The notes beneath the pieces are model-generated. The model saw only the letters and a list, made by a program, of their open reading frames with translations, was not told the origin of the DNA and did not search any database. Below, piece by piece: positions 1 to 16,329 of a stretch of 64,000 nt of DNA (its first letter is position 1; every line of letters starts with the position of its first letter). The DNA comes from the human T2T-CHM13v2.0 reference genome, Homo sapiens. A program made the position numbers and the translations under genes. Location: assembly GCF_009914755.1 (NCBI RefSeq), contig NC_060936.1; one strand, 5' to 3'.

Positions 1-1286
1 GGTCTTCGCTGTTACATTTACCCTTTTGTTTCTGATGTTCTGGGATCACAACATGTTAGGCCCACATTAAAGGCTTTTGTAGTGACTGAAGAAATTAATA
101 CAATCTTAAAATGTTTTTAAGTTTCCTTTCTTAATTTCCCTCTCCTCCTAGCTAATATTTTCACATGTTCTGAACCTGAAATTCTGTTAATGTGCCTCTA
201 CTATATGGTTAAGAGATTTCTTGTTTCACTTTTGTTAATATGAGGGGAGATTACAGATGACCTTAAATTGGAGTTCAAATATTATGCTCTTTTGCTCTTA
301 GTAAATCTTTTTGTTTCCATAATTGCATCTGATGCTAATGTTACTTTTTAAATAAATGTTCTGTCTCCAAAGGGAAATTTGAAGTGAGTTGTGCCCTTTC
401 TTTTGCAAGCTTCCTGATTAATATCTTTCTAATCTTAGATGATTACATATGTTTTTGAGAGGCAGAGAAAGATGATTGCCTACAAAGTCCCTGTTTCCTA
501 GAACCAGGTCTTGTAGAAATTCTTGATCAAATTACCAAAAGTAAACTTGCAGTAATTTAAACGTTTGCATGATTTTCTGTTGTTGGATTCATTAACATGT
601 ATATTATAATAAGTCATTTAATGTTACTTTCTAATAATATTTGTGAAGAAAAGAGCAGATTCGGGGGTTATAAAAAACACCAATAAAATATGATTAGCAT
701 TCAGTTGTATGCAACATAACCAAATCCCTAGAACAGATTTAATTTTATTGTTACTACAAAAATCTTTAATTTGCTCTACATAATTATTTTGGGTTTTATA
801 GAAATTAAGGAGTTTAGTTACATGTCTTAATTACTAGACAATTAAAATAATTGCTTTTGAACATTACCACAAATGTATATACAGTACTGAAGATCAAATT
901 TATTTGTCTTCCATGGAATCTTATAATGTACTACTATCTGTAGCACTGCTAAAGTCAATGGGCAATACACATATGACAGATAATAAAGAACTGTGTAGGA
1001 GTAAACATTTGTCACTTTTCTATTACAGATTATATAATCCTCAAAAATATAATGTTAATGTTTGAGGAGATTTTGCTGGATATTTTAAAGCTAAAATTTT
1101 AATTTAATTACTGATTATGGTCTATGTATCATTCAAAACAGTATTGCTTGCAGACCAAACTAAAGGTTTAAATCAGTTCTTAAAGCATCTAATCTCAGGA
1201 AGACAAAGCATAAAAGAGGGATCTGTTTAGCTGAGCATCTGCCACTTCTATCATTGTCTACACAAGGTGGCTTTTTGTTTCTGTTT

Positions 1287-4200
1287 TTTTTTTTAATACT
1301 TTAAGTTCAAGGGTACATGTGCACAACGTGCAGGTTTGGTACATAGGTATACATGTGCCATGTTGGTTTGCTGCACCCTTCAACTCATCATTTACATTAG
1401 GTAATTCTCCTAATGCTATCCCTCCCCAAGGCCTCCACCCTCTGACAGGCCCTGGTGTGTGATGTTCCCCGCCCTGTGTCCAAGTGATCTCATTGTTCAA
1501 TTCCCACCTATGCGTGAGAACATGCGGTGTTTGGTTTTCTGTCCTTGTGATAATTTGCTGAGAATGATGGTTTCCAGCTTCATCCATGTCCCTGCAAAGG
1601 ATATGAACTCATCCTTTTTTATGGCTGCATAGTATTCCATGGTATATATGTGCCACATTTTCTTAATCTAGTCTATCACTGATGGTCATTTGGGTTGGTT
1701 CCAAGTCTTTGCTATTGTGAATAGTGCCGCAATGAACATATGTGTGCATGTGTCTTTATGGTAGCATGATATATAATCCTTTGGGTATATACCCAGTAAT
1801 GGGATTGCTGGGTCAAATCGTAACTCTAGTTCTAGATCCTTGAGGAACTGCCACTCTGCCTTCCACAATGGTTGAACTAGTTTACACTCCCACCAACAGT
1901 GTAAAAGTGTTCCTGTTTCTCCACATCCTCTCCAGCATGTTGTTTTCTGACTTTTTAATGATTGTCATTCTAACTGGCGTGAGATGGTATCTCATTGTGA
2001 TTTTGATTTGCATTTCTCTGATGACCAGTGATGATGAGCATTTTTTCATGTGTCTGCTGGCTGCATAGATGTCTTCTTTTGAGAAGTGTCTGTTCATATC
2101 CTTTGCCCACTTTTTGATGGGGTTGTTTGTTTTTTTCTTGTAAATTTGTTTGAATTCTTTGTTGATTCTGGATATTAGCCCTTTGTCAGATGGGTAGATT
2201 GCAAAAATTTTTTCACATTCTGTAGGTTGCCTGTTCACTCTGATGGTAGTTTCTTTTGCTGTGCAGAGCTCTTTAGTTTAATTAGATCCCATTTGTCTAT
2301 TTTGGCTTTTGCCATTGCTTTTGGTGTTTTAGTCATGAAGTCCTTGTCCATGCCTATGTCCTGAATGGTATTGCCTAGGTTTTCTTCTAGAGTTTTTATG
2401 GTTTTAGGTCTAATATTTAAGTCTTTAATCTGTCTTCAATTAATTTTTGTATAAGGTGTAAGGAAGAGATCTAGTTTCATCTTTCTACCCATGGCTAGCC
2501 AGTTTTCCCAACACCATTTATTAAATAGGGAATCCTTTCCCCATTTCTTGTTTTTGTCAGGTTTGTCAAAGATCAGATGGTTGTAGATGTGTGGTGTTAT
2601 TTCTGAGGCCTCTGTTCTGTTCCATTGGCCTATCTCTCTGTTTTGATACCAGCACCATGCTGTTTTGATTACAGTAGCCTTGTAGTATAGTTTGAAGTCA
2701 GGTAGCGTGATGCTTCCAGCTTTGTTCTTTTTGCTTAGGATTTTCTTGGCAATGCAGTCTCTTTTTTGGTTCCATATGAACTTTAAAGTAGTTTTTTCCA
2801 ATTCTGTGAAGAAAGTCATTGGTAGCTTAATGGGGATGGCATTGGATCTATAAATTACCTTGGGCAGTATGGCCATTTTCACCGTATTGATTCTTCCTAT
2901 CCATTAGCATGGAATGTTCTTCCATTTATTTGTGTCCTCTTTTATTTTGTTGAGCAGTGGTTTGTAGTTCTCCTTGAAGAGGTCCTTCACATCCCTTGTA
3001 AGTTGGATTCCTAGGTATTTTATTCTCTTTGTAGCAATTGTGAGTCAGAGTTCCCTCATGATTTGGCTCTCTGTTTGTCTGTTATTGATGTATAGGAATG
3101 CTTGTGATTTTTGCACATTGATTTTGTATCCTGAGATTTTGCTGAAGTTGCTTATCAGCTTAAGGAGATTCGGGGCTGAGACGATGGGGTTTTCTAAATA
3201 TACAATCATGTCATCTGCAAATAGGGACAATTTGACTTCCTCTTTTCCTAATAGAATACTCTTTATTTATTTATTTATTTTGCCTGATTGCCCTGGCCAG
3301 AACTTCCAACACTGTGTTGAATAGGAATGGTGAGAGAGGGCATCCCTGTCTTATGCCAGTTTTCAAAGGGAATGCTTCCAGTTTTTGCCCATTCAGTATG
3401 ATATTGGCTGTGGGTTTGTATTAAATAGCTCTTATGATTTTGAAATACGTCCCATCAATACCTAGTTTATTGAGAGTTTTTAGCATGAAGGGCTGTTGAA
3501 TTTTGTTGAAGGCATTTTCTGCATCTATTGAAATAATCATGTGGTTTTTGTTGTTGGTTCTGTTTATGTGATGAATAACATTTATTGATTTGCGTATGTT
3601 GAATCAGCCTTGCATCCAAGGGATGAAGCCGACCTGACCATGGTCGATAAGATTTCTGATGTGCTACTGGATTCGGTTTGCCAGTATTTTACTGAGAATT
3701 TTCGCATCAATGTTCTTCAGGGATATTGATCTAAAATTCTATTTTTTTTGTTGTGTTTCTTCCAGGCTTTGGTATCAGGATGATGTTGGCCTCATAAAAT
3801 GAGTTAGGGAGGATTCCCTCTTTTTTCTATCCATTGGAATAGTTTCAGAAGGAATGGCACCAGCTTCTCTTTGTACCTCTGATAGAATTCGGCTGTGAAC
3901 TGGTCTGTTCTTAGGCTTTTTTTGTTTGGTAGGCTATTAATTATTGCCTCAATTTCAGAGCCTGTTATTGGTCTATTCAGAGATTCAACTTCTTCTGATG
4001 GTAGTTTGTATTTCTGTGAGATCATTGGTGATATCCAGTTTATCATTTTTTATTGCATCTATTTGATTCTTCTCTCTTTTCTTGTTAGTCTTGCTAGCAG
4101 TCTATCAATTTTGTTGATCTTTTCAAACAAACAACTCCTAGATTCATTGATTTTTGAAGGTTTTTTTGTGTCTCTATCTCTTTCAGTTCTGCTCGGATCT

Positions 4201-15500: not shown

Positions 15501-15699
15501 TGGGGCCTGTTGTGGGGTGGGGGTAGGGGGTTGGGATAGCATTAGGTGATATACCTAATGTAAATGACGAGTTAATGGGTGCAGCAGACCAACATGGCAT
15601 GTGTATACATATGTAACAAACCTGCACGTTTTGCACATGTACCCTAGAACTTAAAGTATCATAAAAATATATATATATATATATATATATAATTAAAAT
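9566..15699 (+). mobile_element. Near-full-length L1PA LINE-1, inactive (copy 2). Appears chimeric: L1PA6-like 5'UTR/ORF1, L1PA5-like 3' end
   Basis: 5'UTR starts GGGGTATTCCAAGATGGCTGAATAGG; ORF1 fragments 10664-11386; ORF2 start MTGSNSHITILTLN at 11640; 472-aa RT fragment 13328-14746 with FADD; 3'UTR and an A/(TA)n tail to ~15699. Confidence 0.97.
9813..10082 (-). other. L1 ORF0-like antisense ORF (89 aa) in the copy 2 5'UTR
   Basis: MADAPSPARLLSRRSISDCCTSSEQGFMGVGATEPGMG resembles primate L1 ORF0 (MAGAPPPASLPPCSLISDCCAS...). No evidence of expression. Confidence 0.5.
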
Positions 15700-16329
15700 A
15701 AAACCTACAGAACACATTATAGGCCACTTTAAGCAATAAAACAGATAACAATCATACATTTTTTGGAAGCATAAACACTAAGATATACTAATAACATTTG
15801 CACAGGTATAACAGTTATAAGAAGGTGAACCATATTTTTAAAGAAATAAGTTAAAAAGCAAAGTGTATACATGCATGCCAATATGGTTGGTAATTGTGTG
15901 CACCCAAGTTTCTAACTTTGGTATTTGAAATACTACAGCAGACAACATAAGTCTTTTTGCAAGATCAATCAAAAACTGTTATGAGTCATCACCACGTATG
16001 CAGTCACCCAAAGAGCTGAGATCTTGAGAAATTTTATCTTTCACAAATACAGTTTTACTAAGTGGACATCATTCCATTTATTGAAAAAGTTTTATTATCT
16101 TTATGTGCACAACCAATGCTTACACACAAAGTCAAAGATTTTAATGCACTTTGTGGAGTCAAATTAGCAAAAATAAATACAACAAATTTGATCTGAACTC
16201 TCTAAAAGTCTTTAAACAATTATTCCTCCTGTATTGGAAATGATAAATGAAAAATACACAACATAGAGAATTGTAAAAATCAATGCTGACCATTTAAAAT
16301 AGTGGGAAAGAAACTAAAAAATAGGAAGA

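What the first reader, a model, noticed from the sequence alone, without database searches (positions are those of the whole stretch)
1274..15713. Swapped target-site duplications record an L1-L1 recombination inversion upstream of ACSS3
Seen: neither L1 has its own matching TSD pair; the pairs are exchanged. TTTGTTTCTGTTT beside the tail of copy 1 (1274-1286) is the reverse complement of AAACAGAAACAAA before the 5' end of copy 2 (9553-9565). GTTCTGTAGGTTTT beside the 5' end of copy 1 (7335-7348) is the reverse complement of AAAACCTACAGAAC after the tail of copy 2 (15700-15713). Both inner copies are preceded by TT in L1-sense orientation (TT|AAA, the L1 endonuclease site). Known: TPRT leaves the same TSD on both sides of one element. 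Inference: a crossover between the two inverted L1s flipped the 2.2 kb spacer (7335-9565) and both L1 5' parts. Reversing the segment restores two normal insertions.
Basis: partly seen in the sequence, partly recalled or inferred. Interest (0 to 1): 0.82.

Follow-up and report, generated by a model that had tools for sequence, protein, structure and literature searches.

The report
Ancient inversion between two inverted L1s
Two full-length L1 retrotransposons lying head to head upstream of ACSS3 once recombined with each other and flipped about 6 kb of DNA between them, an ordinary and already described kind of rearrangement that is unusually well preserved here.

Summary
L1 copy 1 (minus strand, 1287-7334) and copy 2 (plus strand, 9566-15699) have exactly exchanged target-site duplications: 13/13 nt and 14/14 nt.

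Other L1 copies from the same genome gave an independent test. I sorted them into two sequence types, Y and X, which are my own working labels.
- Copy 1 is type Y from its 5' end to L1 position about 1800, then type X to the tail.
- Copy 2 is the mirror image.
- The discordant-site counts are (Y,X) 78 vs (X,Y) 0 before position 1798, and (X,Y) 38 vs (Y,X) 0 after 2711.
- The load of private mutations also flips between the two halves.

The exchange maps to window 5372-5537 in copy 1 and 11341-11496 in copy 2, so about 6 kb is inverted. A roughly 750-bp mosaic stretch follows the exchange and looks like patchy heteroduplex repair. Copy 2 also carries a 200-nt deletion with an 87-nt Alu-containing filler exactly at its junction.

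This is a retrotransposon recombination-mediated inversion, a kind defined in print by this same TSD signature (Lee et al. 2008). The case is tidy but ordinary. Age, lineage and polymorphism could not be tested because no outgroup genome was available.

The parts
1274..1286 (-). TSD-a, outer copy, beside the tail of L1 copy 1 (reads AAACAGAAACAAA in L1 sense)
   Evidence: exact reverse complement of 9553-9565. These are the only two exact occurrences in the window.
1287..5371 (-). L1 copy 1, 3' part (L1 positions about 1964-6048, including the 8-nt poly-T tail at 1287-1294). Type X, so originally the 3' part of the element that made TSD-a. This part was not inverted.
   Evidence: type X at 29 of 34 strict sites and 51 of 63 relaxed sites beyond L1 position 2711; its best genomic matches include the 3' ends of two type-X reference elements.
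4632..5372 (-). Mosaic zone in copy 1 (L1 positions 1963-2703), a putative heteroduplex or gene-conversion tract next to the crossover
   Evidence: of 12 diagnostic sites, 3 are (X,Y), 6 are (Y,Y) and 3 are (X,X); copy 1 vs copy 2 identity is 0.943-0.956 here against 0.912 further 3'. Fisher p = 0.009 for identity and 1e-4 for same-state sites.
5372..5537 (-). Exchange interval in copy 1 (Y at L1 position 1798, X at 1963). It is seamless and collinear with the reference L1s.
5538..7334 (-). L1 copy 1, 5' part (L1 positions 1-1797). Type Y, so originally the 5' part of the element that made TSD-b. This part was inverted.
   Evidence: type Y at 61 of 62 strict sites. At sites 1201-1741, outside the stretch used to pick references, it is Y at 22 of 22.
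7335..7348 (-). TSD-b, inner copy (AAAACCTACAGAAC in L1 sense, preceded by TT)
7349..9552 (.). 2204-bp spacer, inverted together with the two L1 5' parts. It is single copy in the genome except for a repeat of about 390 bp at 7912-8304.
   Evidence: the only full-length match is to itself. The 39 other scored matches cover only spacer positions about 560-977.
9553..9565 (+). TSD-a, inner copy (AAACAGAAACAAA, preceded by TT)
9566..11340 (+). L1 copy 2, 5' part (L1 positions 1-1775). Type X, so originally the 5' part of the TSD-a element. This part was inverted.
   Evidence: type X at 59 of 62 strict sites and 18 of 22 relaxed sites at 1201-1741.
11341..11496 (+). Exchange interval in copy 2 (X at copy-2 position 1776, Y at 1931)
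11387..11473 (+). 87 nt of non-L1 filler that replaces 200 nt of L1 (copy-1 positions 1742-1941). Positions 11387-11448 are an Alu-like 5' end in antisense. GGT microhomology lies at the left joint.
   Evidence: alignment; matches 12 other short repeats in the window, best 92% over 73 nt at 18401-18473. The name Alu is recalled from the sequence, not given by a tool.
11497..15699 (+). L1 copy 2, 3' part with its A/T-rich tail. Type Y, so originally the 3' part of the TSD-b element. Not inverted. The mosaic zone occupies 11496-12233.
   Evidence: 92.8-94.0% identity to six Y references against 90.1-91.7% to six X references; type Y at 29 of 34 strict sites and 46 of 63 relaxed sites.
15700..15713 (+). 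TSD-b, outer copy

Best explanation
Two L1 elements of different age inserted separately by target-primed reverse transcription, 5' ends facing each other, about 2.2 kb apart. The older one is type X, on the minus strand, with TSD AAACAGAAACAAA. The younger one is type Y, on the plus strand, with TSD AAAACCTACAGAAC.

Later, a homology-directed exchange took place between the two inverted copies. The crossover lay near L1 position 1800-1960, at the end of ORF1 and start of ORF2. It inverted the segment between the two exchange points: about 6 kb, roughly window 5372/5537 to 11341/11496. That segment holds both L1 5' parts, both inner TSDs and the spacer.

Each present-day L1 is therefore a reciprocal chimera, and each TSD pair now sits on different elements in inverted orientation.

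Shown: the exchanged TSDs, the reciprocal chimerism, the shared exchange position, and the flip in mutation load.

Inferred:
- The exchange was followed by about 750 bp of heteroduplex with patchy mismatch repair (the mosaic zone).
- The deletion plus Alu-derived filler at copy 2's junction may be a scar of the same event.
- The event is old, on the order of 10 million years with wide error, and so probably fixed.
For: (1) TSD exchange is exact, flush with the L1 ends, and not due to chance.

(2) Reciprocal chimerism. Reference L1s were picked only on likeness to the first 1200 nt of copy 1 (set Y) or copy 2 (set X).
- Strict diagnostic sites: up to L1 position 1666, copy 1 is Y at 61/62 and copy 2 is X at 59/62. 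From 2715 on, copy 1 is X at 29/34 and copy 2 is Y at 29/34.
- Relaxed sites: (Y,X) 78 and (X,Y) 0 before 1798; (X,Y) 38 and (Y,X) 0 after 2711 (Fisher p = 2e-31).
- The 3' parts of the references were not selected on any likeness to either copy, and the result is the opposite of what non-recombinant elements would give.

(3) BLAST identity of copy 2's 3' part is 92.8-94.0% to the six Y references and 90.1-91.7% to the six X references. The ranges do not overlap.

(4) Private-mutation load flips. In the 5' part it is 44 for copy 1 and 74 for copy 2. In the 3' part it is 117 for copy 1 and 91 for copy 2 (Fisher p = 0.0012). The X-type halves are the more decayed ones in both copies.

(5) Of the 39 best non-self genomic matches to copy 1's 3' end, 2 are the 3' ends of elements already found through copy 2's 5' end (C8:67.78 Mb and C12:33.39 Mb). 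None belongs to the set found through copy 1's own 5' end.

(6) The mosaic zone has same-state sites at 9/12 against 27/143 elsewhere (p = 1e-4). Divergence between the copies is 36/632 there against 292/3319 further 3' (p = 0.009).

(7) The same TSD logic is the published diagnostic for this class of event (Lee et al. 2008, PMC2603318, passages read).
Against: - No outgroup or second human assembly could be consulted, so the ancestral orientation is inferred only from within the sequence.
- The result for L1 positions 1-1200 is circular, because the references were chosen on that stretch. Only sites beyond 1200 count as a test.
- By plain BLAST identity, copy 1's 3' part does not separate the two reference sets (90.2-90.9% to Y, 90.1-91.5% to X). 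Only the diagnostic sites do.
- The best matches to copy 2's 3' end overlapped neither 5'-derived list.
- In the 3' part, 17 of 55 informative relaxed sites are same-state, with a cluster at L1 positions 5101-5700. The X/Y contrast is therefore not clean everywhere, and only 6+6 references were used there.
- The raised identity in the mosaic zone (0.943) does not exceed the best single reference (maximum 0.946).
- Copy 2's junction is not seamless, so a purely homologous crossover does not describe everything.
- The two L1s are now only about 91% identical in ORF2 and about 82% in the first 1.8 kb. That is at the low end of published L1 pairs that flank inversions.
Confidence: 0.93

Rival explanations
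1. The inversion is real and its breakpoints lie in the L1s, but it arose from repair of double-strand breaks with at least one non-homologous joint (end joining or template switching). It was not a clean reciprocal homologous crossover. Copy 2's junction (200-nt deletion plus 87-nt Alu-derived filler with GGT microhomology) would be the original joint. Copy 1's seamless junction and the duplicated Y-type patches would come from homology-directed repair or annealing on the other side.
For: The deletion and filler in copy 2 (copy-1 equivalent 1742-1941) lie inside the X-to-Y switch of copy 2. They also overlap the 166-nt exchange interval of copy 1 (1798-1963). An independent 200-nt deletion would overlap that interval with a probability of about 0.06. 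Lee et al. report deletions at 12 of 49 such inversions (section read).
Against: Both switches fall at the same L1 position within resolution, and copy 1's junction is collinear with all the references shown. Both points are as expected for a homologous exchange. A later, unrelated Alu insertion followed by a deletion in copy 2 is not excluded (p about 0.06 is weak). The retained Alu piece is the 5' end, which does not fit an aborted retrotransposition.
Confidence: 0.25
2. Assembly artefact: the assembler flipped the inner segment between two inverted repeats, and the real chromosome is not inverted.
For: A mis-join inside inverted repeats would also produce exchanged TSDs and chimeric elements. 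Only one assembly could be inspected.
Against: The repeats are only about 91% identical in ORF2 and about 82% in the 5' 1.8 kb where the switch lies. That is far too diverged to confuse long accurate reads. A mis-join would not create a mosaic zone of same-state sites, nor a deletion and filler exactly at one junction.
Confidence: 0.02
3. Two ordinary, unrearranged L1 insertions whose flanks match crosswise by chance. Alternatively, two elements that each inserted as already-chimeric copies.
For: L1 target sites are A-rich and of low complexity, which raises the rate of chance matches.
Against: Two exact flush matches of 13 and 14 nt were found, against 1 of 19,927 random 30-mer pairs reaching 13 nt. 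Neither element has a TSD pair of its own (7 and 6 nt shared). The reciprocal type switch at one position is not expected for independent insertions. Chimeric source RNAs would still leave each element with its own matching TSDs.
Confidence: 0.01

Closest known systems
Retrotransposon recombination-mediated inversion (RRMI; L1-RMI), Lee, Han, Meyer, Kim & Batzer 2008, PLoS One 3:e4047 (PMC2603318)
   Same: Two inverted L1PA-type elements lie at the breakpoints, both are chimeric after the event, and the TSDs no longer match within an element but do match across elements. That paper uses exactly this signature to call the ancestral state (passages read). The size of about 6 kb is within their range of 166 bp to 81 kb (section 7).
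   Different: Their 49 loci are human-chimpanzee differences. Here the lineage and age are unknown, and the event may predate that split. The two elements here belong to different sequence types and are now only about 91% alike.
Polymorphic balanced inversions flanked by inverted L1 pairs in human long-read and Strand-seq catalogues (Porubsky et al., preprint 10.1101/2021.12.20.472354)
   Same: Inverted L1 pairs are the NAHR substrate. The median size of their L1-flanked inversions is 5.6 kb, and full-length pairs occur in 6 of 22 (passages read).
   Different: Their L1 pairs have a median identity of 97.2%, with 21 of 22 above 90%. This pair sits at the bottom of that range. Polymorphism was not tested here, and no chr12 or 12q21 mention appears in their main text.
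Twin-priming 5' inversion within a single L1 insertion
   Same: L1 sequence lies in opposite orientations close together.
   Different: Twin priming gives one insertion with one TSD pair, a truncated element and no unique DNA between the arms. Here there are two full-length elements, two different TSDs and a 2.2-kb single-copy spacer.

Membership tests
Retrotransposon recombination-mediated inversion (L1-RMI) | Two elements of the same retrotransposon family in inverted orientation span the two breakpoints | tested here: met
   Copy 1 is on the minus strand at 1287-7334 and copy 2 on the plus strand at 9566-15699. They align over about 5.7 kb at 82-92% identity. L1 domains were found by Pfam in both.
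Retrotransposon recombination-mediated inversion (L1-RMI) | Each element lacks its own matching TSDs, and the TSDs match crosswise in inverted orientation | tested here: met
   The crosswise matches are 13/13 and 14/14. Own pairs share only 7 and 6 nt.
Retrotransposon recombination-mediated inversion (L1-RMI) | Both breakpoint elements are chimeric, with the switch at homologous positions | tested here: met
   (Y,X) 78 and (X,Y) 0 before L1 position 1798; (X,Y) 38 and (Y,X) 0 after 2711. The switch lies at 1798-1963 in copy 1 and at the equivalent of 1696-1963 in copy 2.
Retrotransposon recombination-mediated inversion (L1-RMI) | The orthologous locus in a related genome shows the un-inverted arrangement | not testable with these tools
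   No primate or second human assembly is held. Only the window's own genome could be searched.
Twin-priming L1 inversion | A single insertion with one TSD pair, and inverted and direct L1 segments abutting without unique DNA between them | tested here: not met
   There are two different TSDs, two full-length elements and a 2204-bp single-copy spacer.
L1 insertion by target-primed reverse transcription (for each original element) | A TSD of 7-20 nt, an A-rich tail, and a TT|AAAA-like endonuclease site | tested here: met
   After conceptual re-inversion, each element has a 13- or 14-nt direct TSD, a tail (poly-T at 1287-1294; A/T-rich to 15699) and TT before the 5' TSD. The consensus cleavage site is recalled, not taken from a tool.

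The most novel reading that the evidence does not exclude
The locus may preserve a recombination intermediate in fossil form. The record would consist of three things. First, a reciprocal crossover at L1 position about 1800-1960. Second, about 750 bp of symmetric heteroduplex repaired in patches in both directions: 6 (Y,Y), 3 (X,X) and 3 untouched sites. Third, at one of the two junctions only, a non-homologous scar (200-nt deletion, 87-nt Alu-derived filler, GGT microhomology).

On that reading the inversion was started by a break at or in an Alu sitting inside one L1. It was then resolved half by homologous recombination and half by end joining. Such a hybrid route is not what the standard NAHR picture of repeat-mediated inversions assumes.
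Probability: 0.25. Interest if true: 0.4.

Novelty: new member of a known kind. Interest (0 to 1): 0.25.

Why it matters
It matters little as biology. Inversions made by recombination between inverted L1s are documented in human-chimpanzee comparisons and in human inversion catalogues, and exchanged TSDs are the standard way to recognise them.

The locus is a clean teaching case. Both TSD pairs are intact, both elements are full length and of distinguishable types, and the exchange point can be mapped to about 160 bp from a single genome.

It also shows that such events can be proved without an outgroup, by typing the two halves of each element against other copies in the same genome. The possible scar and mosaic tract bear on how such exchanges are resolved.

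The inverted 6 kb lies 11-17 kb upstream of the ACSS3 start (22837), and copy 2 ends about 7 kb upstream. It contains no annotated gene or enhancer, so no functional effect is suggested.

Tried and rejected
- Supplementary tables of Lee et al. 2008, which might list this locus, were closed and I did not ask again. The inversion tables of the other catalogues were therefore not seen either.
- Literature:
  - ACSS3 with 'inversion' gave 16 papers, 15 listed. None of the listed titles concerns a germline inversion at this locus.
  - A wider search gave nothing with ACSS3.
  - 'chr12', '12q21' and 'chromosome 12' do not occur in the main text of Giner-Delgado 2019, Aguado 2014 or the Porubsky preprint.
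A smaller request for the 3' remainders of 6+6 references was accepted, so the 3' typing rests on 12 references only. Two of them are incomplete: L049 has an internal gap and L051 ends at about L1 position 4750.
- Mean identities from the multiple alignment beyond L1 position 4600 are distorted by those two rows. I did not use them and relied on site counts instead.
- The test for shared derived mutations as proof of gene conversion was inconclusive. Against 38 references, no such site occurs in 1-1800 and 5 real ones occur in 1951-2700. With 12 references, 11 further ones appear scattered over 2700-6050.
- Dating from the mosaic zone is only rough, because conversion there was incomplete.
- Tandem Repeats Finder found nothing to explain the extra roughly 77 nt in copy 2's 5' UTR.
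- Subfamily names (L1PA numbers) could not be assigned, because no repeat library is on hand. X and Y are working labels.
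Full report
**1. Observation**

- 1274-1286 is the reverse complement of 9553-9565 (13/13).
- 7335-7348 is the reverse complement of 15700-15713 (14/14, extendable by one base).
- Each abuts an end of a full-length L1. Copy 1 lies on the minus strand at 1287-7334 and has an 8-nt poly-T tail at 1287-1294. 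Copy 2 lies on the plus strand at 9566-15699 and has an A/T-rich tail.

Pfam finds L1 ORF1 domains and the endonuclease-RT domain in copy 1, and the endonuclease and reverse transcriptase in copy 2. Four of the eight frames submitted gave no family. Both copies are riddled with stops. The longest open frames are 164 aa in copy 1 and 485 aa in copy 2.

Neither TSD string recurs elsewhere in the window without a mismatch. Shuffles expect 0.57 and 0.02 hits even with one mismatch allowed. Each element's own flanks share only 7 and 6 nt. Among 19,927 random pairs of 30-mers from the window, 1 reached an inverted match of 13 nt or more.

**2. An independent test of the interpretation**

If a crossover between the inverted L1s exchanged the TSDs, each present-day L1 must be a chimera of the two original elements, and both must switch at the same L1 position.

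The two copies differ strongly in their first 1.8 kb (about 82% identity) and less in ORF2 (91-92%). That suggested two different L1 types.

The window's own genome can be searched. I collected two sets of reference copies:
- Set Y: the 19 best other genomic copies matching the first 1200 nt of copy 1.
- Set X: the 19 best matching the first 1200 nt of copy 2.

For six references of each set I also fetched the 3' remainder.

At sites where the two sets differ consistently, the results were as follows.
- Strict sites: copy 1 is Y at 61 of 62 sites up to L1 position 1666, and X at 29 of 34 sites from 2715 on. Copy 2 is X at 59 of 62 and then Y at 29 of 34.
- Relaxed thresholds: the discordant classes are (Y,X) 78 and (X,Y) 0 before position 1798. 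They are (X,Y) 38 and (Y,X) 0 after 2711 (Fisher p = 2e-31).

The first 1200 nt are circular by construction, because the references were chosen on them. The sites at 1201-1741 (copy 1 Y at 22/22, copy 2 X at 18/22) and all the 3' sites are not. The 3' result is the reverse of what unrearranged elements would give.

Three further lines agree.
- Copy 2's 3' part is 92.8-94.0% identical to the Y references and 90.1-91.7% to the X references.
- Private-mutation load is higher in the X-type half of each copy. It is 74 vs 44 in the 5' part and 117 vs 91 in the 3' part, with the excess changing sides (p = 0.0012).
- Two of the 39 best genomic matches to copy 1's 3' end are the 3' ends of elements that entered set X through copy 2's 5' end. 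None belongs to the list from copy 1's own 5' end.

Against this:
- Copy 1's 3' part is not separated by plain identity (90.2-90.9% vs 90.1-91.5%).
- The best matches to copy 2's 3' end overlap neither list.
- 17 of 55 informative 3' sites are same-state.

**3. Anatomy of the event**

Copy 1 switches from Y to X between L1 positions 1798 and 1963 (window 5537-5372) and is collinear with the references there. Copy 2 switches from X to Y between its positions 1776 and 1931 (window 11341-11496).

The inverted segment therefore runs from about 5372/5537 to about 11341/11496, roughly 6 kb. It comprises both L1 5' parts, both inner TSDs and the 2204-bp spacer. The spacer is single copy apart from a repeat of about 390 bp.

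Downstream of the switch, from L1 position 1963 to 2703, the 12 diagnostic sites form a mosaic: 3 are (X,Y), 6 are (Y,Y) and 3 are (X,X). Same-state sites make up 9/12 there against 27/143 elsewhere (p = 1e-4). The two copies differ at 36/632 positions there against 292/3319 further 3' (p = 0.009).

I read this as heteroduplex DNA next to the crossover, repaired in patches in both directions. It is an inference, for two reasons. The identity in the zone (0.943) does not exceed that to the best single reference (0.946). The shared-derived-mutation test was also inconclusive.

Exactly at its switch, copy 2 lacks 200 nt of L1 (copy-1 positions 1742-1941). In their place it carries 87 nt (11387-11473). 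Of these, 62 nt are the antisense 5' end of an Alu-like repeat, with GGT microhomology at the left joint. An unrelated 200-nt deletion would overlap the exchange interval with a probability of about 0.06. A link to the event is therefore suggestive but not shown.

**4. Mechanism and timing**

The best explanation is a homology-directed exchange between two inverted L1s that inserted independently. An older X-type element made TSD-a, and a younger Y-type element made TSD-b.

Within-set divergence supports the age order. Y-Y identity is 0.92-0.95 and X-X identity is 0.90-0.92 in well-aligned stretches.

The residual divergence of about 4-6% inside the converted patches compares with about 7% of post-insertion decay outside them. 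Taken at face value, this puts the event at roughly half or more of the elements' age. On recalled calibrations for primate L1 families, that is of the order of 10 million years. The figure is rough, because conversion was incomplete.

An old, fixed inversion is also what the present 91% identity suggests. Polymorphic L1-flanked inversions in human catalogues involve pairs of median 97.2% identity (passages of preprint 10.1101/2021.12.20.472354).

**5. Comparison with what is known**

This is a retrotransposon recombination-mediated inversion. Lee et al. 2008 (PMC2603318) described 49 such loci between human and chimpanzee, 21 of them involving L1. They used non-matching TSDs of chimeric elements as the criterion for the derived state, and noted deletions at 12 of the 49. 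I read the abstract and outline, passages and section 7.

Three of the four defining features were tested and met. The fourth, an un-inverted ortholog, cannot be tested with these tools. Twin priming is excluded.

No held paper links ACSS3 with such an inversion in its main text. Three inversion papers have no chr12 or 12q21 mention in their main text.

**6. Verdict**

The kind of event is already known, so this is at most a new member. Interest is low to moderate. The points worth keeping are the single-genome proof of chimerism, the 160-bp mapping of the exchange, and the possible scar and mosaic tract.

Noticed in passing
window 11387-11473: An 87-nt non-L1 insert replaces 200 nt of L1 in copy 2. 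It consists of 62 nt of an Alu-like 5' end in antisense, then 25 nt of unclear origin that include a second short Alu-like motif. It sits exactly at the recombination junction.
   Followed up: partly
window 9757-9832 (copy 2, L1 positions about 192-267): Copy 2 has about 77 nt in its 5' UTR that none of the 39 other best-matching genomic copies aligns to. Every match breaks at query positions 191/268. No tandem repeat was found there.
   Followed up: partly
window about 3990-4000 (copy 1, L1 position about 3340): Copy 1 lacks about 85-90 nt that copy 2 and all 12 references have. Every alignment breaks at copy-1 positions 3340/3345.
   Followed up: no
window 10966-11073 (copy 2, L1 positions about 1401-1508): A short cluster of four consecutive diagnostic sites (copy-1 positions 1402-1427) where copy 2 carries the Y state inside its otherwise X-type 5' part. 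It may be a second small conversion patch on the other side of the crossover.
   Followed up: no
window about 14666-15416 (L1 positions 5101-5851): Seven of the 10 fully typed relaxed diagnostic sites at L1 positions 5101-5700 (11 sites in all, one gapped in copy 1) are same-state, 5 of them (X,X). One strict (X,X) site follows at L1 position 5796 in copy 1, which is 5851 in copy 2. This is either another conversion patch near the 3' end or variation within the reference types. Only 12 references were available.
   Followed up: no
window 7912-8304 (in the spacer): A roughly 390-bp interspersed repeat. The 39 other scored genomic copies are 85-88% identical. The family was not identified.
   Followed up: no
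outside the window, G000:C12:81108606-81109813 (minus strand): A third L1 3' end, 93% identical to copy 2's 3' end, lies about 10.6 kb beyond the window's right edge, inside ACSS3. It is in inverted orientation relative to copy 2.
   Followed up: no
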